Source: Curvularia clavata
Taxonomy: Eukaryota
Assembly (NCBI GenBank): GCA_023920165.1
Contig: CP089277.1
Coordinates: 1,798,001 to 1,862,000, forward strand
Reading direction: 5' to 3'
Length of the DNA: 64,000 nucleotides
A program made the position numbers and the translations under genes. Shown here in pieces: positions 20,161-31,840 of the stretch. The notes below the pieces were generated by a model. The model did not search any database, had not been told where the DNA came from, and saw only the letters and a program-made list of their open reading frames with translations. The stretch's first letter is position 1. The number at the start of each line of letters is the position of its first letter.

Positions 20161-20604
20161 GGTGGGCGGTTGGGGTTTGGGGGAGCTTGGAGGGCGGGAT
20201 AGAGCTTGGTGGCGGGCGGGTTCGCGCGCGCGGCCGAATTTGTGATTCCTTGGCTCGAAGGAAGGTTCGCGATGTGAGGGGAGCTGGTGGAGATGGGACG
20301 GTTCGCAAGTTTGCGATGACGGTAGTGTTGTGTGTTGGATGGAGGTTCTGGAGCTGGAAGTCGTCATGGCCTTGCCTTGCCGCGCCGCGCATGCTTCCGC
20401 GTGGTGGTCTGTGCGTGCATGGGACTTGCAGCGTGAAACTAACGCCGATGTGTTTGGTCTCTGAACATGATTTTGACTGCACACAAATTTCGTTGCTCTA
20501 AGTCATTTCAAGGAGATTTTGAGGAGCAATGTGTTATAGTTCAATGAGTTTCATTTGAAGCTGATGCCATTACATGCAGTTACATTGAATCGACATTCCT
20601 ACTA

Positions 20605-20649
20605 AGCTCGGACATATACTTTCCGCGCACATAGGGTTCCCGCGCACCC
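20605..20649 (+). repeat. Left terminal inverted repeat (45 bp)
   Basis: AGCTCGGACATATACTTTCCGCGCACATAGGGTTCCCGCGCACCC; exact reverse complement of 22350-22394. Confidence 0.95.
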
Positions 20650-20699
20650 ATACAAAGCAGCTATACTGGATACAGTCGCGATTTTCTCAACAACAACAA

Positions 20700-22292
20700 T
20701 TATATTTGCCACTTATTATATATAGAGCTAAGAGTAAGCGCTGCCGCTTCTGCTGCCGCTTTTTCAGCTGCTTTTTCAGTTGAAATAGTTGCCCGTTGTG
20801 CCTGTAGAGCTGCTGCTCGGTCAATAGCAGCCTTAATACTCTTAACGTTACTAAAGCGTTTATTTGGGTTAACTTGAACTCGTTTTCTTACGCGAGTAAT
20901 TTTATAGCTATCTAGTTGATATCTAAGCTGTTGATTTTGAGCTTTAAGTTGGGCAGCTCTAGTATTTGCCTCCGCAATAGCCTTACCTGCTTTGCTAAGC
21001 ACCAGCCGGGTGCTTCGTGAGAGAGATTCTGACAGCAGTAGCTGCTGTTGGGTCTTATGTAGAGCCTGTGAGCTCCGAGGTGTATTAAAGACTTGTTCTG
21101 GTAGTTCTTGGGCCTGACGGGCGGCTGGCGGAGTAACTGGTCGGCCAGTTATTTGAGACGAGAGTAGCACAATGTCTGGGTTGTATGGACAGAGCCTAGC
21201 AGCCCTCTAGCTAGCTCTAATAACACGCTCTGATAGTCCTTCTGCTCTAGCTTTATTGTATGATATAACAAAGCGCTCTTTTTTTACTGGAGCTGCGTCG
21301 TCAAGCGCTGAGAGAGCTTGAATCTGATTACGATAGCGAGACTTGAGTATAGAGAAGGGAGCTAAGTCTAGCGGCTGCAGCAAGTGAGAGGCATGCGTAG
21401 GAAGATATAGTAGCTGGATCCTATTTATCTTACAAAGCTATATGAAGTCGATAGGCGTGTGGGAGCTATGGCCGTCAAGAAGGAGTAGTTGATATCCACC
21501 ACTTGTAGGCGCAGTATTTGGTATAAAAATCCGCTGTAGCCACTCAGATCTAATCAAATTCGACGTCCACCCATTCTCTGACGTAGTGTATAGCCAATCT
21601 GGTGTACTCGTAGCTGGAAACTACGTAGTCTGAAGATGCTTGCCCTTAAAGACAACTAGACACTGGAGCTTGGCGCCTGTGGCGGAGATGGTCTTAATAA
21701 TTGACACCCACTCGCGATCCTCTGGAGACTTGATGTAAGCTTTCTTTTTTGAAGAGCTTGCAAGCACTCTAGCGTTCGTATATACCTCTAGCGCGACTCC
21801 AGTCTCGTCTATATTCTATATATCTTCGTACTGTATGCCTAGCTCTATACGCGTACGTTTAAATAGCTTAAGAAAGGCTTTAACAGTCTTATAGTTGGCA
21901 CTAGTAGTATGCGCGCTCTCGATCTTTCGGCCGACTATTGATGCGACGCGTGGGTTACGTGCAATGAAATGGGGTACCCAAAGCTGTCTAAGTGGCTCGT
22001 AGTCACTATTCATATGCAGAATTCGAGTGGCCATTTCTCGTACGCGTAGATGGGACGGGGGTTGTGCGCGTGAGTCCTCATCAAGTATCCAATCTACTAG
22101 AAAGGTCTCTTGTTCTGGCGTTAATCGCTGTTGTTGTTGATGAGCTGTTGCGTGTGGTTGTTGACCTTGCTGCCGACCGCGTATTGTAGATTTAGAGATG
22201 CCGTACCACTTAGCAGCCTTACGCCGGCTTGTAAAAATACCTGAATTAAGATCTGCGATAGCATTCTGTATAGCAAGCTCTTTGGGATCCAT
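20700..22292 (-). pseudogene. DDE_1 transposase (HTH_psq/CENP-B + DDE), inactivated by RIP
   Basis: MDPKELAIQNAIADL..RKAAKWYGISKSTIRGR..RLTPEQE HTH region. Catalytic blocks EDI*NIDETGV, LLLDGHSSH..DFI*LC and HLLQPLD. Stops are TAG where Trp TGG is expected. Confidence 0.92.
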
Positions 22293-22349
22293 TTTAGTCT
22301 CGTGGGGTTGATGTTACAAGCGTTGCAAGTGAAGCAACGCGTTGTGGTG

Positions 22350-22394
22350 GGGTGCGCGGGAACCCTATGTGCGCGGAAAGTATATGTCCGAGCT
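22350..22394 (-). repeat. Right terminal inverted repeat (45 bp)
   Basis: GGGTGCGCGGGAACCCTATGTGCGCGGAAAGTATATGTCCGAGCT followed by TA. Confidence 0.95.
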
Positions 22395-22630
22395 TACAGG
22401 CTTTGTACCAACACTGACAGCTAAGATCCGGCTATATAATTATGGACTCACACTTCTTCAACGCACCGTTATAAACATTATGAATTCATCCGGGACAATG
22501 TGACTTCGGCCACAGTGTTTCCCGTGAACTGCCGTCTCGGCAGAATGTTCAGACTGTTGCGTCTCACGCTACGACAAGGGAATGTCCTTTGCTGGTTAGA
22601 TATGGCGAAACTATCAATATAGGTGTACAG

Positions 22631-24104
22631 CTAAACAACGAAGAACGGAAGGGTTGGAAAGTCTTCGTGCCAAGCAAGCAGCGTCCCCTCCTTGCTTCGG
22701 CGCTGCTGTAGGTATTCGATGGCATTGGTAATGTTGGCGAATCCATTGCGCTGGTGATGAAGCATAAGCTTTTGTATAAAATACTCGTGCTGTCCCTCTG
22801 TGCTACTCTCAACGGCACCGAAGAAACACACCCAGACTAGAACATGCTCCAATGGTGACCCCGTAGGAAAAGCCTCCATGGTAGTCTTAAGCCGCTCAAC
22901 TCGTTCGGTCAGTGGGCCCGCGCCACAACCAAGTGCTACGCGCTCAATGTAAAGTGCGCAAGCTTGCTCCATAAGGTCGCAGATCAGTGACATGGCCTCA
23001 TGATGTTCGGGATAGAGCGGAATATATGAGCGGAAGTCATCCCAGCCGCGGGAGTCGAGGGGCCTTTTGAAAGCTGTATGGCTGAGGACTTCAACACCTT
23101 GAGAGCGGCTCAGTGCTGGTGCGGCATACCCTCGAAACTTCAAATACTGACGAATCACGAACAATCCAAGTTCGCCTTGGCCCAGCTCCTCGTCACCACC
23201 ACCAGCCTCCCAAGCTGTCTCTAGGAGGCGGAATATCGAACGAAAGTCGGATGATCCGTTCACCATGGTTACTACGAGGAGCACCAAAAGAGATATGAGG
23301 ATGACATGTTTCTTACGTGCGTCATAAGCGGAAAGCTCCTGATTTTGGCGCAACCCGTCAATTGCGCGGTTATAGAAATCTCTCGGATGTCCTAAGTGTC
23401 TGGACACATTGTCTGAGAAGTGAAAGGCAGCGGCTGCTTGGACAGAGTTGGCAATTAGGTCGTACTTATGGGCCAGCGGCAGGACAATGGACCGCCAGCC
23501 ATTCCTCTCGTCGTCAATGGTTACGAGCTCAACCGCCACGGTCTCTGAGAAGTACTGTAACATGAAAGTTGTAGTAAGTGGAAGCGACTGCAGTGCGGCC
23601 ATGGGCGAATGCTTCGGATCTAGCCACTCCCAGTCAGAGACGTAGTCATCTCCGGTCTGTGAGTCAACGTCAAACATGCAGATTACCGACACCTGCGTGT
23701 TTACATACGAACTCGTTGCTTGTGAATGCGGCACGTAAATGGTACCGTCAATGTCGATATCGTTGGTGAGTCCTAGGTCAAAGGCTATTGTGCCTTGCGA
23801 GAAAAGAGACTCATGAGAATTTCGAGCCGGCGAATTATGCTGGGACTTCTGACGATCCCTCTTTCTTTGTTTAGTGACATCTGCGCGAAAACGATAACGG
23901 ACACCAAGTCCACTGCACTGCAAGCCCTTGGCGACGCATTTCCTACATTGTGGTTCGACTCTGTCGCAGTCAATGCGTCGTTGCGAGCATTCGTAACACC
24001 CTGGCCCAGTATCAGTAAGGAAGCCCTGTATTGTGGGGCTATTGGTAAACTGTGGGGTAGCCACCTTTGACTTTGGGTGTACGGCCGGAGCTGCGGGTGG
24101 CCAT
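22631..24104 (-). CDS. Zn(II)2Cys6 transcription factor with Fungal_trans_2-type C-terminal domain
   Basis: Exon 24104-24065 (MATRSSGRTPKVKG), intron 24064-24001 (GT..CTGAT..CAG), then CYECSQRRIDCDRVEPQCRKCVAKGLQC and NGWRSIVLPLA, open to 22631. Confidence 0.88.
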
Positions 24105-24194
24105 GGGCAGTGGAGACGTGGAGCCTCATCACCTCATTCTGCGTGTGTTTGTAGGACTGAAGAGATAGGTGTGTTGCCTGTTTCTTGTCGGTTC

Positions 24195-24213
24195 CGGGCA
24201 ACAAAAGTGAGAC
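24195..24213 (-). promoter_or_regulatory. Cluster motif copy GTCTCAC-N8-CCCG upstream of the Zn2Cys6 gene
   Basis: Minus strand reads GTCTCAC ttttgttg CCCG, about 90 bp upstream of the ATG at 24104. Confidence 0.55.
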
Positions 24214-24372
24214 GATAACGGGACCGCGAAGTGATGTAGGTACTCAGTTGACTGCACAGCTTGTAGTATTGCTCGCCGCCGAAAAGGGTAATTCGATCCT
24301 CAATGTTGTGAATAAGAGAATGCCAAGACAGTCCCGGCCCCGCTTCTTAAACCAATAGATATCCATCGACTT

Positions 24373-24398
24373 CGTCTCATCTTTTTGTCCCGATATGG
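24373..24398 (+). promoter_or_regulatory. Cluster motif copy upstream of the SSADH-like pseudogene
   Basis: cGTCTCAT ctttttgt CCCGATAtgg. Confidence 0.6.
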
Positions 24399-24542
24399 AT
24401 GCAACCTATAGACATCATTGAGCCATATGTGCTCTGCCTTTTCAAACAAGAGGCTACATCTACCATTACTATGCCGTGAAATCTAGTTAAGAGTCTATGC
24501 GCTTCCTCCGTTGCGTTTTTCGTGCATCGCGTACTCGTTCAT

Positions 24543-25734
24543 ATGGCGCATAGTCTGAGATCAGTTTTGAAAGACCAATATCTTTGTCCAAGGCGCATAC
24601 ATCGAAGACAAATGGATTTCAGCAGCACGAGGGAACTCTGTATTTAAAGTTCTAAACCCGGCCGACAAAGAGCTGATCGGTTCATGTCCCGAATGCACCT
24701 GGCTGATCTACATGCTGCCACTCAATCCGCCTCTCGCGCTTTTCAGCGGTGGAAAGCCTTTCCCAGGCGCCAAAGAAGCCAAATCCTACAAAATGTTTTT
24801 GGTCTCTTGAGAGAACATCAACAGGACCTCGCCACCATCATTACAGCGGAAAGTGGCAAGCCTTCTACCGATGTTCAGGGCGAAGTGCAAGTCGCCTATT
24901 GTCAAGAAAATTTCATTTACGGGTTCCGCGAGAGTAGGCAGATTTTTGATGCAGTAATTCAACTGAACACGTAATAGGCTCAGTCTTGGACTATGTGGCA
25001 AAGCCGCATTCATCCTTTTCGATGACGCCGATATTGAGAATGCCATTTTAAATGCTCTGATCAGCAAGTTCAAAGTACCCGGTCAAACACGTATCTCTGC
25101 CAATCGATTTTTCATCCAGGATGACATCTACGGCCAATTAAGCCAGCGATTGATAGAAGACGTTAAGCGTTTCCGCGTGGCTCACGGCAACGACCCTTTG
25201 AATACCCACGGTCCTCTCACAATGGGCATTTCCAAGGTTGAGGCCCAAATTGCTGACGCTATAGCAAAGGGTGCGACTCTGCTGCATGAAGGTCATCCGC
25301 TTCCACTTCTGGGCGGCAATTCCCATGAGCTCACCGTACTGGCGAATGTAACGTATGAAATGCTGTGCATGCATGAGGAAATATTTGGGCACGTTGCTGC
25401 ACTATCAATGTTCTCAACTAAGACGAAATGATTCGGCGAGTGAATTCCTGTGATTTTGGGCTGACGTCTTATGTTACGACACAGAATCTGGGGCTCTTGA
25501 CGAGAGTGTCGGAATCTCTCGGGGCAGGTATGGTGGCAATCAACACACTTGTCATCTCCGACTCGTCTACCCCATAAGTTTCTCTACGCTTCTCTGCTAC
25601 GCAAAATAATTTTTAAAACTTAGTTTAGATTTGGTGGGGTCCAACAATCTGGATTCGGTCGAGAAGGGAGCAAATATAGAATTGACAATTACCTTGTAAT
25701 TAAGAATATTGTGACGAACGTAGCGATGCTATAG
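24543..25734 (+). pseudogene. Succinate-semialdehyde dehydrogenase-like (UGA2/GabD-type ALDH) pseudogene
   Basis: Fragments MAHSLRSVLKDQYL / FVQGAYIEDKW..VLNPADKELIGSCPEC / DLATIITAESGKP..GEV / VKKISFTGSARVG..** / SLGLCGKAAFILFDDAD..SKFKVPGQTRISANRF / EEIFG / [14 protein letters not shown]. It has frameshifts, in-frame stops and a large internal deletion. Confidence 0.88.
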
Positions 25735-26033
25735 GGTTTGAACCCGTACTTTTGGATAGCAGCAGATCTTCCAACAGTTCTTTTCCATGCCAAGGTAGGG
25801 AATATCATGTAGCTTGGCGGTTGAGTCAGCGCCATTCACGCACTGCTGAGAAATTTGCCCATGTAGCCTCAAGTGCAAGCTATCGAAACGAGATTACCAG
25901 CAAAAAGACATCACATCTCTTTAGGCTAAACGGCTGGGTAGAATGAAATAGCTGCTATTTTACGTGTACCTGGGTTCTTGAGGTGCAATTGCTTGTATCT
26001 TGAATTGAGTCTTTTATAAGTCACTACCCTTGC

Positions 26034-27527
26034 TCACAATCGTGCCTCAACTGATTGCGTCGATAGAGCCTTCATAACCTCAGCAGCTGCAGCCTCGCCG
26101 GAGTCCAATGCACCCTCCATGTAGCCCTTCCATTCACTAGCATACTCAGTGCCCGCGAAATGAAGGTTACCTACCGCTTTACCATTGATATCGGTGAACT
26201 TTGTCATGTATCCCAGAGCAGGAATTGGCACCAATGCACCCTTGCTGTATTCTTCATGCTTCCAGATCTGATTGAAGATCTCAATGGGCCGGTAAGCTTC
26301 CGAATCTTTGCCCTGGCAGAACGCATGGGCAATTTGTTCGAGGACAGCACGTCTTTGATCATGAGGGGCCATCTGGCTCCATTCGAACCCGCGCTTCCCA
26401 TTCATGAAACACGTCAAGCAATAGAGTCGTTTTTCGTCGACACTCGTGTCACGCGCAACAGCAATGTAGCCATCGTAACTCATGAAGAGGCCATTGTAGT
26501 TCTCTTCTCGCCACCAAGGAGTATCATAACATACGATGGACTTGTTATAGTCCCCCAATCTTGTCGATCCGGAAAGCTCCTGGAGTGGCTGTGGAAGTTG
26601 TGGTTGGATGTTGAGGTCACGATACAAGGTGCTTGGAATAGACAAGATGCACTTCCGTGCCACAAACTTTCGTCCAGCTTTCGTTATGACTGTGACTTTG
26701 TGCTTCTCGTTCTCAATGGTAGCTACTGGCGAAGAGAGATGGATGTTTTCATGACCTAATAGAGACGCCATACTTTTCATAATGGCTTGTGCACCTTTGC
26801 CGTAGTTAGCTTCGCGATAAGATATGCGCGAATGTTAAGCTTGTTCGTACCTGCAGGTAGACGGAGATACTGACCACCCGTGTGGTCGTCTGCTCGAATG
26901 GCAAGCAGTCCTTTGTTACGCCGGCAGTAATCGATGAAGAAGCAAGCTGACTGGTCGGTGGATTCAACGCCATGCATGACCTTGGCCCATACGTTCACCA
27001 AACGACAAGTGTTCTCTGTCGCGCCCAGGTTACGAACGTATTGGTCCAATGTCACAGCGTCATCTTCAGGCAGGTTGGGTAATCTTTTGAGTGATTTTTC
27101 TTGAATGTGATCGCGGATAACTTCCAGATTTTGTAACTCTTCTCTAGGGAACTTTAGTGAAGGTAAGTAAGAAGCAGCATTTGGCATAACGTTACTACCG
27201 ACATACTGTTGGGGTGTGCCCATTTTCGAACACTAACCGGTCTCCACCAACTGCGTATTGAACCACACCAAGACCTTCGATCCTTTGTTTGACAACGGGC
27301 ATGCCAAATTTCTGGACATATGACCATATTCTTGGTTGTAGAGTGTCGTTGATCCAAGCGGCACCCAAATCAACATTCCCACGGCCTGAAGCCAGCGGTA
27401 CGCTCCATACCTTACCTCCAACGCGATCTCTAGCTTCGATCACTGCTACTGACAAGCCCTCCTGCTGCGCACTCAATGCAGCTTGCAGTCCACTCGGGCC
27501 GGCCCCAATGACTACGACGTCGAACAT
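26034..27527 (-). CDS. Flavin-containing amine oxidase (MAO-N-like) with C-terminal PTS1 (-ARL)
   Basis: Exons 27527-27207, 27151-26851 and 26794-26034 are in frame. Motifs DVVVIGAGPSG..EARDRVGG, DLGAAWIND, LHFAGTEYASEWKGYMEGA; the protein ends VEARL*. Confidence 0.92.
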
Positions 27528-27678
27528 GGTGTAAAGTATGGTTGCTTCCTTAGAAACAAGAATTTGAATTTATGTGGAATATAGTTTAGAGCTTGTGTTG
27601 TCAAGCATGGCCGCTTTTGCATACTGATATAGTCGAGATTGGGGTGAAGGAAGCACCATGCGCACGCTAACCCAAAAT

Positions 27679-27696
27679 GGTCAAAAAGATGAGACG
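27679..27696 (-). promoter_or_regulatory. Cluster motif copy in the amine oxidase / Fe2OG divergent promoter
   Basis: Minus strand CGTCTCATCTTTTTGACC; 15 bp (27682-27696) are identical to 24373-24387. Confidence 0.6.
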
Positions 27697-28006
27697 CATC
27701 ATGCGAATATTCCACCTTGGCTTCATTTTCAATCAAGCGCGGTCTCGACAAGTCTTCTGGAAAATTTGCCTTAGAACAGATAGGTGGGTAGGTCTAGGGA
27801 GGCGGGGTAGCCATTACTTGCCTCGACGCTCTTGAAAGGCTCAATGTCTTGATCGTGTGAATTGCTATCGCAAGGGTATCACAAGTTGTGCATATATACG
27901 TGAAACATGCGCTCGTTCAAAATACAAAAAGATAATAGTAGTCCTCTTCCCAGAAAATCATCAAGAGACATTATCACCACATACCCATCTCCATCCCCCT
28001 TTCAAC

Positions 28007-29071
28007 ATGAATACATCCGTTCTCAGTCCACCCAAGCCAGCCGCGCCACTTGAGAAGACCGTCACCAGGCCGAGCATACCATTGCCAAAAAGTCTCATAG
28101 AGAAAAGCATTCTGAAGGAGCGCCTCTCGTTCGATCCAGCGATACATTTAAACTTCAAAACCGCTCCTAAAGTGATGACAATGAAGGAAATAGGATATGA
28201 AGGTTATGGGATCTCTCCAGTGGCCGTATCAGAGCCGTTCCCGCTCTTCAAAGAGAATGCTGTCAATCAAATGCGCGCGGAGGCTTTCACACCAGAAGTC
28301 CTAGACAACTGCCTAGTCTCGTCCAGTTTCGCGAAACATATGATTCGAGCGTACGCGCCTAAGTACGCGACATTTGCATGGGAAGCTTGGCACAATGAAG
28401 AAGTGCAGGCGATTGTCTCTAAAATTGCTGGTGTAGAGCTGGTACCCAGTCTCCCCTGCGACGTCGGCCACATCAATGTGTCATTTGGCTTGGACGACGA
28501 GCCGCAGCCAGACACTGACGAAACATCTGCATTCGGATGGCACTTTGACAGTACTCCTTTCGTCTGTGTAACCATGCTTTCTGACTGTACTCAAATGGTT
28601 GGAGGAGAAACTGCAATCAAGACAGCTTCCGGAGATATTATCAAGGTGCGAGGGCCAACAATGGTGAGTTTCTCGTCCTCATCGATGTCTGTCAAATAAT
28701 CGCAGTTAACTTCTCTCTAATAGGGAACCGCTGTGATAATGCAAGGGCGGTATATTGAACACCAAGCACTGAAAGCTTTTGGTGGCAAAGAACGCCTAGC
28801 TATGGTGACATCGTGGCGACCAAAGTCACCATTTATGTTGGATCAGACAGTACTTGCTGGTGTTCGCGGTATCACAGAGCAGAATTCGCTTTACTACTGG
28901 TTCTGCGACTATCGGTTTGAGAATATAGAAGCTCGATTTCGAGAAGAGCGACGCAAGATCCTCGAGCGTCAGTGTCAGAGACTGGATTTCGATGTTGATA
29001 GCATCCGAGAATTCCTCGAGGAGCAGCAGAGAACGATAAAGCTTCTTCTTGGCGAGATTGTACATACCTGA
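28007..29071 (+). CDS. Uncharacterised fungal Fe(II)/2-oxoglutarate dioxygenase-fold protein
   Basis: Exon 28007-28663, intron 28664-28723, exon 28724-29071. WHFDS (HxD), GGET, IEHQAL (distal His) and ERLAMVTS. Confidence 0.8.
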
Positions 29072-29828
29072 TAACGTGGGATCGATTGACAGTAATACGG
29101 CCACCGTGCACGTACATCTTTTTATTTTCGGTTGTTACATAACTCACATCCAATACGAGAGCTCTGTAGAGTTGCTTTTGCAGGGTTTCGGACCATTTCA
29201 TACAAGTCTTTGACAAAGTACCGTATTATGTCTCTCATCGTATGCCCTGCCAATAATAGATCAATTTTCCGCCTCTCTTTGTCTCAAACTGGGTTAGAAT
29301 ATGAGATCGAAGCGTCATGGTACTGATAACATTATACGTGACAGGAAGCATTGCTGCCTAACTGTTAGTGATAGTGAGACAAGTACAGAGAAAGTTTTGT
29401 ATTTTCCCCCGCTCCAGAGGCTTCCCCGCATTCTTTTAAAAAAACCTGGTCAGTGGGGCGAGGTTACATCTTACGCATCAAATGGTGCGTGTTTGAGGCT
29501 TCCAGATTTCCCCAAGTGCCTAGTGGGAACATAAACGGCTACATACGGTTAGTGCTGAAAGCTTTTTGGTCCCCTATACTCTCTACTGTGCCATTCTCGC
29601 GCTCCCCTTGTAATTATAATCCACTTAGCAAGAGATGCCAAAATCAATCCACTAACAAGAACATCATAAGGCCTCTCTTTTAAGGAGCAAGTGCCGCCGT
29701 TGCTTTGACATTGTACACGCAATGGGACTATCACATGATCTGATAGCACGATAAGACGATGAATATGAGAGATAATGGCGAACTACCTTCCCCAGAGGGT
29801 TCAATACATAGACGCTAAGTCAAAAGTT

Positions 29829-29875
29829 GTCTCATAGTTGTTTCCCGATACGGCAGATCTCACAAGGATGGCCCA
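29829..29875 (+). promoter_or_regulatory. Two cluster motif copies upstream of HglS
   Basis: GTCTCAT agttgttt CCCGATAcgg (29829-29853) and a degenerate ATCTCAC aaggatgg CCCA (29857-29875). Confidence 0.55.
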
Positions 29876-29954
29876 TATTTCCGATGATAAAGTTACAACG
29901 CATCAATCTTAAACTGATACTGTGTACACCCTCAGATAATACCTCCTCGTAACC

Positions 29955-31427
29955 ATGTCTTCCGCTGCAGCTCTCCAAACATTAAACCCATTCGCATTCG
30001 AGCCCATCGTCGCCCGGCTCATCAGTAGCAATCGAAGCAAATTTGTCCATCAAGATGCCCTCCGAAGTACATTTGCTTTGTACATGTCAGTAATGTACAA
30101 GGCCGAAGTGCCACTATACGGAGATCTCATTGAAATTGTCCGAGTTGTGAACGAGAAAGTGATCAGCTCGTCACCAGAGCGCCAATGGGGTTCAGAAAGG
30201 CTTGATGTCGAAAGACATGGAGCCATTCGCCTTGGTTCACCACAAGAACTGTCAATCATGCGACGTCTGCTCGCGGCTATTGGTCTTCATCCAGTCGGAT
30301 ACTACGATCTTTCAGTTGCTGGCCTTCCCATGCACGCGACAGCTTTCCGTCCCTTAACTCAAGAATCGTTAACGAAAAGTCCTTTTCGCATTTTTTGTAC
30401 TTTGCTAAGGCCTGAGCTACTCGACAACGAGACTCGAACCCTCGCCATGTCATTCATTAACAAACGTCGAATTTTCACTGCTGAGCTTCTTGATCTGATT
30501 GGCACGAACGAGTCACAGGGAGGCCTCACCGAAGAACAAGGCGAGGCGTTTACCATGGAAGCCATGAAAACCTTCCGCTGGCAAGGAACCGCAGTTGCCA
30601 ATCTCCATGAGTACAATCAGCTCCGCGACTCTCATCCCATAATTGCCGATATAGCTTGTTTCGGCACCGCCCATATCAATCACCTGACTCCAAGGACGCT
30701 TGACATCGATCAAGCCCAAGAGCAAATGCGTAAACGTGGAATGGCTGTCAAGAGCCGCATCGAAGGTCCGCCTTTACGAGCCTTTCCCATCCTTCTCCGC
30801 CAAACAAGTTTCCTTGCGCTAGAAGAATCCGTAAGCTTCCGGACCACCAACGACTCTACAAATGCTATATTGATCAATGGTTCGCATAAAGCTCGATTTG
30901 GTGAGATCGAACAGCGTGGTGCGGCGGTCACGCTTGCTGGCCGACAACTCTACGACAGCATCTTGTCGCGCGTGCTAGATACCGGACGCAAACGTAAAGC
31001 ATCAGCAGATGGAATGGATCATATTTTACAAGCAGAATTCGCCGCATATCCAGACACTCTGGAAGAGTTGATTGACCAGCGGTTAATCTATTGCATCTAC
31101 ACCGTCGATCAAAGTAAGATTGAAGAAGCCAAAGAGATTGGTCCAGCAGCTACAATTAGGCAACTATTAGCTAGGGGAGTGTTGCATGTCACGCCTCAAA
31201 TCTATGAGGACTTCCTTCCCTTATCTGCTGCGGGCATCTTCCTATCCAACCTCGGAAAGGGGAAGGCTGAGAACCCAGGGTTCGCTGTTGGAGGTGGCCA
31301 AGATGTATTTGAGCAAGCTCTTGGGGCGAAAGTGCATGACCCGGAAGCTTTTTATCAACAGGCGCAGCAACAGAGTCTCGAGGAATGTGCCAGAATATTG
31401 CGAATTGAGATAAGAGATGATTGTTAG
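29955..31427 (+). CDS. 2-oxoadipate dioxygenase/decarboxylase (hydroxyglutarate synthase, HglS/YdcJ, DUF1338)
   Basis: Single 490-aa ORF with MYKAEVPLY, ERHGAIRLG, GYYDLSVAGLPMHATAFRP, PFRIFCTLLR, HINHLTPRTLDID, IEGPP, ILLRQTSF.ALEE, HKARFGEIEQRG and YEDFLPLSAAGIF.SNL. These are the signature blocks of proteobacterial YdcJ/HglS. Confidence 0.9.
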   Translation: MSSAAALQTLNPFAFEPIVARLISSNRSKFVHQDALRSTFALYMSVMYKAEVPLYGDLIEIVRVVNEKVISSSPERQWGSERLDVERHGAIRLGSPQELSIMRRLLAAIGLHPVGYYDLSVAGLPMHATAFRPLTQESLTKSPFRIFCTLLRPELLDNETRTLAMSFINKRRIFTAELLDLIGTNESQGGLTEEQGEAFTMEAMKTFRWQGTAVANLHEYNQLRDSHPIIADIACFGTAHINHLTPRTLDIDQAQEQMRKRGMAVKSRIEGPPLRAFPILLRQTSFLALEESVSFRTTNDSTNAILINGSHKARFGEIEQRGAAVTLAGRQLYDSILSRVLDTGRKRKASADGMDHILQAEFAAYPDTLEELIDQRLIYCIYTVDQSKIEEAKEIGPAATIRQLLARGVLHVTPQIYEDFLPLSAAGIFLSNLGKGKAENPGFAVGGGQDVFEQALGAKVHDPEAFYQQAQQQSLEECARILRIEIRDDC

Positions 31428-31840
31428 CGGAGTCTTCCGCAGGGAATACCAAATGTGCGCCGGGGCTCCAACTCCTTGAAAATACGTAAGGGTAATACGC
31501 AATGTTTTGATATTCACTCAAATAATCGCATCAAACGCTCGAATTTGCGCTTCTTATGTTGAAGTACCATGTACGGCAAGTAAGTCAAAATTGCTTTCTT
31601 TCGAGGAGTAAATTGTTTATAGAATTGATAACATTGAAATTACGAACCTCATGAACAAATTCGCAACTTTCAAAGCTAGTGTCCAGATATCAGATCATGA
31701 AAGCGTTTATTGATAATTGGACTTATTACAGAGTTCGTTTTCAGGGTAGGTTACCGTTGTGGATGGGACTCCTCGGAATCGCGGAAATCCTGATGGTTCT
31801 TATCTATCGATGCTCCACGTCGAAGATAAGCCCAATGTTA

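What the first reader, a model, noticed from the sequence alone, without database searches (positions are those of the whole stretch)
24195..29875. Shared bipartite promoter element GTCTCAY-N8-CC(CG) on the coding strand upstream of four cluster genes
Seen copies: TF (minus, 24213-24195) GTCTCAC-ttttgttg-CCCG; SSADH (24374-24398) GTCTCAT-ctttttgt-CCCGATAtgg; amine oxidase (minus, 27695-27679) GTCTCAT-ctttttga-CC; HglS (29829-29853) GTCTCAT-agttgttt-CCCGATAcgg, plus a degenerate second copy at 29857-29875. The SSADH and amine oxidase copies share an identical 15-mer (CGTCTCATCTTTTTG) ending 156 and 155 bp from their ATGs. Established: Zn2Cys6 proteins bind two half-sites (often CCG/CGG) at fixed spacing. 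Inference: this is the binding site of the cluster TF, including autoregulation, and it is independent evidence that the genes form a regulon.
Basis: partly seen in the sequence, partly recalled or inferred. Interest (0 to 1): 0.8.

Follow-up and report, generated by a model that had tools for sequence, protein, structure and literature searches.

The report
Composite promoter element in fungal cluster
A short two-part DNA signal repeats in front of the genes of a fungal amine-breakdown cluster and of related regulator genes in other fungi, and it looks like a docking site where the cluster's own regulator sits next to the general helper protein Mcm1.

Summary
The four copies are real and at the stated places. 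The motif is longer than written: TCTCAY-N8-CC-NN-WW-NN-GG. It occurs with at most 1 mismatch in 3 of 6 promoters of distant relatives of the TF, against 5 of 383 background windows. It also occurs in a second cluster of the same genome: a MAO-N-like oxidase, a permease and the closest TF paralog. Spacings 8 and 6 fit best. The right part resembles an Mcm1 (MADS) box rather than a CGG half-site: the central bases are A/T at 17 of 18 positions, and 5 of 8 GG-bearing sites meet the published CCNNNWWRGG. Best reading (0.5): the cluster's Zn2Cys6 factor binds TCTCAY beside an Mcm1 dimer, as with yeast Arg81. Against: no binding data, no orthologous cluster promoters, an A>G change inside the HglS copy in 3 of 3 covering runs, and copy 1 lacks GG. 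The SSADH gene is a pseudogene.

The parts
24189..24213 (-). Element copy 1 (GTCTCAC-N8-CC-N6-CG; lacks the GG), probably inside the TF 5' leader
   Evidence: RNA-labelled contig 22408-24294
24374..24398 (+). Element copy 2, full match; 270 bp from the TF ATG and 145 bp from the SSADH-pseudogene ATG; likeliest autoregulatory site (inferred)
27671..27695 (-). Element copy 3, full match, meets CCNNNWWRGG; in the divergent promoter of the amine oxidase and the putative dioxygenase
29829..29853 (+). Element copy 4, full match, 102 bp upstream of the HglS ATG; base 29834 reads G instead of A in runs X6, X11 and X14
29857..29881 (+). Degenerate tandem copy (ATCTCAC-N8-CC, no GG)
24279..24288 (+). 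Stand-alone Mcm1-like box (meets CCNNNWWRGG) without the TCTCAY part
22631..24104 (-). Zn2Cys6 + Fungal_trans_2 transcription factor, about 469 aa, one intron (24001-24064); effector domain weakly like the Upc2 ligand-binding domain
24543..25735 (+). SSADH-type aldehyde dehydrogenase pseudogene (frame changes, in-frame stops, internal deletion near 24900)
26034..27527 (-). Flavin amine oxidase (MAO / putrescine-oxidase-like), open when spliced; intron 27152-27206 seen spliced
28007..29071 (+). 334-aa protein with no Pfam, NCBIfam or PDB hit; an H-x-D motif suggests an Fe(II)/2-oxoglutarate dioxygenase (recalled pattern, unconfirmed)
29955..31427 (+). HglS-family 2-oxoadipate dioxygenase/decarboxylase, the only match in the genome

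Best explanation
A composite upstream element for an amine- or lysine-derivative catabolic regulon. An Mcm1 homodimer binds the palindromic CC-NN-WW-NN-GG. The cluster's Zn2Cys6/Fungal_trans_2 factor binds the asymmetric TCTCAY 8 bp away, across a T-rich spacer. Cooperative binding at fixed spacing would give specificity that neither short part has alone. The TF's Upc2-like domain would sense a metabolite and switch on the oxidase, the putative dioxygenase, HglS and the TF gene itself. Shown: the copies, the spacing, co-occurrence with the TF subfamily, and an Mcm1 gene in the genome. Inferred: which protein binds which part, cooperativity, the ligand and the pathway.
For: The 11-position consensus from the window matches with at most 1 mismatch in 3 of 6 promoters of TF relatives (L028, L030, L031), against 5 of 383 real non-ORF windows, p about 6e-5. 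Summed mismatches over all 6 give p about 2.4e-4. The second cluster, at C2:1150346-1156380 (MAO-N-like oxidase, permease, closest paralog, 55% identical in the DNA-binding domain), has a 1-mismatch copy at -303 of the oxidase and a 2-mismatch copy at -222 of the permease. Over 9 held-out promoters, spacer 8 gives a mismatch sum of 17 against 23-27 for spacers 3-13; inner spacing 6 gives 17 against 21-26. The central two bases are A/T at 17 of 18 positions (held-out 10 of 10), while 22% of 497 background CC-N6-GG have this feature, which no earlier search used. 5 of 8 GG-bearing sites meet the SCPD Mcm1 consensus CCNNNWWRGG, against a 20% background. An Mcm1 ortholog lies at C6:2239286. The Zn-cluster motif C.ECSQRRI.CD is kept in all 16 aligned subfamily sequences. 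The model shows no helix in residues 24-120 after the Zn cluster, a low-confidence stretch. Mcm1-cofactor sites with constrained spacing, including Arg81, are described in PMC2253631.
Against: There are no binding or expression data for the element. Base 29834, the A of TCTCAT in the HglS copy, reads G in 3 of 3 runs that cover it; it is the only difference in contigs of 439 and 308 bases. Copy 1 and the degenerate copy lack GG, and the SSADH and HglS copies miss CCNNNWWRGG by one base. 3 of 6 relatives lack a good match (L027 4, L029 3, L032 2 mismatches), and the paralog TF's own promoter has only a 2-mismatch hit without the CC. The relatives are not orthologous clusters and come from unnamed organisms. 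The CC-N6-GG register was first written down after L030 and L031 had been seen, and the C2 oxidase site was noticed in a pattern list, so those p-values are not fully blind. The consensus is not enriched genome-wide (22 against 24), and none of the 12 extra hits inspected looked like a regulon member.
Confidence: 0.5

Rival explanations
1. The cluster TF alone, as a dimer through its C-terminal domain, reads the whole 25-bp element; the likeness to an Mcm1 box is incidental.
For: It predicts the same co-occurrence with the TF subfamily. The effector domain resembles that of Upc2. Yeast Lys14 reads a CC..GG palindrome (recalled).
Against: It needs one DNA-binding domain to read both an asymmetric hexamer and a palindrome 8 bp away. 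The central A/T pattern matches Mcm1. CGG/CCG triplets are not kept.
Confidence: 0.25
2. Mcm1 sits next to a global factor rather than the cluster TF: TCAY is a bZIP (Gcn4/CpcA) half-site, or ATGAGA is a variant Ste12 site.
For: L028 reads GACTCAT, close to TGACTCA. ARG80 and GCN4 elements co-occur in yeast (PMC4777128).
Against: No TGASTCA occurs in any of 12 promoters. TCTCAY is found at the N8 position in 0 of 210 background Mcm1-like boxes. Among the places inspected, promoter copies were found only in the two clusters, whose TFs share the CS.RRI.CD motif.
Confidence: 0.15
3. Chance, or a relic of promoter duplication, with no function.
For: The consensus is at background frequency genome-wide. 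There is a SNP inside copy 4, and copy 2 persists before a dead gene.
Against: The SSADH and oxidase promoters share 24% identity outside the element and 77% within it. Three exact copies lie in three intergenic regions, against 0 of 383 background windows. The element recurs in held-out loci.
Confidence: 0.08

Closest known systems
Yeast Mcm1/Arg80-Arg81 arginine regulon
   Same: A MADS protein works with a cofactor at nitrogen-catabolic genes (PMC2253631, passages). Arg81 being a Zn2Cys6 protein of the Fungal_trans_2 type is recalled, not tested.
   Different: Here the host is a filamentous ascomycete, the targets are clustered amine-oxidase genes, and the TF belongs to an uncharacterised subfamily. 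I could not obtain the Arg81 flanking motif as text, so the motifs were not compared.
Mcm1-Fkh2, Mcm1-Yox1 and Mcm1-alpha1/alpha2 composite sites
   Same: A CC-N6-GG box with a cofactor motif at constrained spacing (PMC2253631 section 11).
   Different: Those cofactors are not zinc-cluster proteins, and their targets are cell-cycle and mating genes.
Gal4-type CGG-Nx-CCG Zn2Cys6 sites
   Same: A cluster-specific Zn2Cys6 regulator with fixed spacing.
   Different: No paired CGG triplets are conserved, and no helix is predicted directly after the Zn cluster (low-confidence region).
Upc2
   Same: Weak match of the effector domain (E 7.7e-5; Foldseek probability 0.98 but E 0.13).
   Different: Upc2 is a sterol regulator at about 11% identity; this is not an ortholog.

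Membership tests
Mcm1-cofactor composite element | CC-N6-GG box resembling the Mcm1 consensus | tested here: met
   8 of 9 aligned sites have CC-N6-GG; 5 of those 8 meet CCNNNWWRGG, against a 20% background; central A/T 17 of 18. In the window only copy 3 meets it exactly.
Mcm1-cofactor composite element | Second motif at constrained spacing | tested here: met
   Spacer 8 gives the lowest mismatch sum among spacers 3-13 in 9 held-out promoters; not fully blind.
Mcm1-cofactor composite element | Mcm1 ortholog encoded in the genome | tested here: met
   C6:2239286; best PDB hit 1MNM; 97% identical in exon 1 to a protein named Mcm1
Mcm1-cofactor composite element | Mcm1 and cofactor bind the DNA cooperatively | not testable with these tools
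Mcm1-cofactor composite element | Conserved in orthologous promoters | tested here: inconclusive
   Found in 3 of 6 TF-relative promoters. Contigs about 83% identical over three cluster genes exist in runs X6 and X11, but their promoters could not be retrieved. A SNP lies within copy 4.
Canonical CGG-pair Zn2Cys6 site | Two CGG/CCG triplets at fixed spacing | tested here: not met
   Only the HglS copy has CCG-N3-CGG; the CG is absent from the 5 held-out sites.
Gcn4/CpcA site | TGASTCA | tested here: not met
   0 in 12 promoters

The most novel reading that the evidence does not exclude
A subfamily of Zn2Cys6/Fungal_trans_2 regulators (Zn-cluster motif CS.RRI.CD), found from Pleosporales to Chaetothyriales, Aspergillus and Fusarium, acts as a dedicated Mcm1 cofactor. 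It reads a non-CGG hexamer 8 bp from the MADS box and runs amine-oxidase clusters. That would extend the Arg81-type partnership to clustered catabolic genes of filamentous fungi and give a predictable site for an uncharacterised TF group.
Probability: 0.4. Interest if true: 0.68.

Novelty: new variant of a known kind. Interest (0 to 1): 0.5.

Why it matters
It gives a testable 25-bp site for an uncharacterised TF subfamily. It also suggests that pathway-specific cluster regulators in filamentous fungi can rely on Mcm1, which single-protein binding assays would miss. Finally, it links a fungal HglS gene to an amine oxidase by regulation, a handle on fungal lysine or amine catabolism, which bioRxiv 10.1101/2020.01.30.927905 describes as almost uncharacterised.

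Tried and rejected
(1) A full 25-column matrix trained on 4 sites overfits the spacer. Held-out best-hit p ranged from 0.006 to 0.53, and it missed the C2 oxidase site; I replaced it with the 11-position consensus. (2) An alternative register, CCR-WWW-YGG, needs N8 in one copy and N9 in the others; inner spacing 5 scored worse (21 against 17). (3) Further regulon members: I inspected 12 extra genome hits (L058-L063, L053, L159, L160, L164-L166). They lay in coding sequence or had no related gene downstream; the other listed hits were not inspected. (4) Orthologous clusters: the metagenome scan gave 6 TF relatives and no orthologous cluster. Genome and viral scans gave none. (5) The 28007 protein had no Pfam, NCBIfam or PDB hit, and its single-sequence fold had pLDDT 33; the Atlas was unavailable. 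(7) A test of Mcm1-box enrichment around 40 Fungal_trans_2 loci could not be run. (8) Foldseek gave no hit at E<=0.001. (9) No run on record as RNA was listed. X14 is only guessed to be RNA, though it shows two spliced joints. Gaps in its cover are not evidence. (10) Earlier-findings look-ups returned nothing. (11) Paper searches (listings only) showed no description of this element, and one search failed. The one supplement file held for PMC2253631 had no Arg81 text, and its figure motifs could not be seen.

Full report
Observation. GTCTCAY-N8-CC occurs 4 times in the window, at the stated coordinates; shuffles give a mean of 1.12, and 2 of 100 reach 4. The identical 15-mer ends 156 and 155 bp from the SSADH and amine oxidase starts. 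An unbiased search for gapped words shared by the three intergenic regions found 18, nearly all pieces of this element, against at most 4 in 60 shuffles.

Surroundings. The cluster holds a Zn2Cys6/Fungal_trans_2 TF, an SSADH-type gene, a flavin amine oxidase, a 334-aa protein with no family hit, and HglS. A Tc5-type transposon relic lies to its left. A protein 100% identical to most of the TF is named from Curvularia clavata by its source; the 16 other hits are 28-42% identical. The SSADH gene is broken by frame changes, stops and an internal deletion. A contig of run X14 (RNA label guessed) covers 22408-24294 and skips the TF's 64-nt intron, so copy 1 probably lies in the TF leader. Copy 2, 270 bp from the TF start, is then the likelier autoregulatory site, which would explain its survival before a dead gene (inference). 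The SSADH and oxidase promoters share 24% identity outside the element, so the 15-mer is not a duplication relic.

Refined motif. Three of the four copies read CC-N6-GG in one register. I tested GTCTCAY-N8-CC-N6-GG on all 6 TF-relative loci from the metagenome scan and on the 3 promoters of a second cluster that holds the closest paralog, a MAO-N-like oxidase and a permease. Best mismatches were 4, 1, 3, 1, 1, 2 for L027-L032, and 1, 2, 2 for the second cluster. Against 383 real non-ORF windows, none matches exactly and 5 have at most 1 mismatch; 3 of 6 gives p about 6e-5, and the summed test gives p about 2.4e-4 for the relatives and 1e-3 for the second cluster. Spacer 8 and inner spacing 6 give the lowest sums. 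These tests are not fully blind. I wrote down the CC-N6-GG register after seeing L030 and L031, I had considered one other register, and I noticed the oxidase site in a pattern list. L028 and the permease site came afterwards.

What the right part looks like. Over the 9 aligned sites (4 from the window and the 5 held-out ones with CC..GG; L027, L029, L032 and the paralog TF promoter were left out), the central two bases are A/T at 17 of 18 positions and the spacer is T at 43 of 72. In the background, 22% of 497 CC-N6-GG have central WW. Five of 8 GG-bearing sites meet the Mcm1 consensus CCNNNWWRGG, quoted in PMC3691137 and PMC1702486 (passages), against a 20% background. The genome encodes an Mcm1 ortholog. 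PMC2253631 (passages and section 11) describes Mcm1-cofactor regulons with constrained spacing, including Arg81. That Arg81 is a Zn2Cys6/Fungal_trans_2 protein is recalled.

Mechanism. Most likely (0.5) Mcm1 binds the palindrome and the cluster TF binds TCTCAY, cooperatively. The TF's effector domain weakly resembles the Upc2 ligand-binding domain and may sense an amine or lysine-derived metabolite. HglS converts 2-oxoadipate to 2-hydroxyglutarate in the bacterial and plant enzymes tested; fungal homologs were not among those tested in the passages I read (bioRxiv 10.1101/2020.01.30.927905). The substrate is inferred. The rivals are the TF alone reading both parts (0.25), Mcm1 with a global factor (0.15), and no function (0.08).

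Results against. Base 29834 in the HglS copy reads G in all 3 runs that cover it. Either the site tolerates this, as the permease copy with C at that position would suggest, or that base is not under selection. Copy 1 lacks GG. Three of 6 relatives lack a good copy. The consensus is at background level genome-wide (22 against 24). A refined pattern gives 9 against 2, but it was built from these sites. None of the 12 extra hits inspected looked like a regulon member. No orthologous cluster promoter could be read, and no binding test or complex model was available.

Novelty. Mcm1-cofactor elements are known, so this is a new variant of a known kind if the reading holds. Searches (listings and abstract starts only) showed no description of this element or of a partner for this TF subfamily, but the library lacks most subscription papers. 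Other papers seen: PMC4777128, PMC10819945 and PMC11449735 (passages). Interest 0.5.

Noticed in passing
window 20602-22397: Tc5/pogo-type transposon relic with matching terminal inverted repeats, directly left of the cluster.
   Followed up: partly
window 24543-25735: SSADH-type pseudogene. An X6 contig over 24417-24961 has 1 other letter and no gap, so these breaks are not an assembly artefact; a 45% identical paralog lies at C8:1735886.
   Followed up: yes
window 22631-24104: The public protein model P0001 of the TF lacks the Zn cluster; the spliced contig supports the model with the 64-nt intron and an intact cluster.
   Followed up: yes
G000:C2:1150346-1156380 (L056): Second amine-catabolic cluster: MAO-N-like oxidase, amino acid permease and Zn2Cys6/Fungal_trans_2 paralog, with two copies of the element.
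   Followed up: yes
window 22400-31600, runs X6 and X11: Contigs about 83% identical over the TF, the putative dioxygenase and HglS point to related genes in sister taxa, although the protein search found no TF relative above 42%.
   Followed up: no
window 28007-29071: Intact 334-aa gene with an H-x-D motif and no family hit; the only match in the genome.
   Followed up: partly
window 29075-29954 and the C2 permease promoter: 8 and 9 GATAR sites, possibly nitrogen-catabolite control (AreA, recalled); not tested against background.
   Followed up: no
L028:68-936: A second Zn2Cys6 gene is divergently placed from the TF relative and shares the promoter that holds the element.
   Followed up: no
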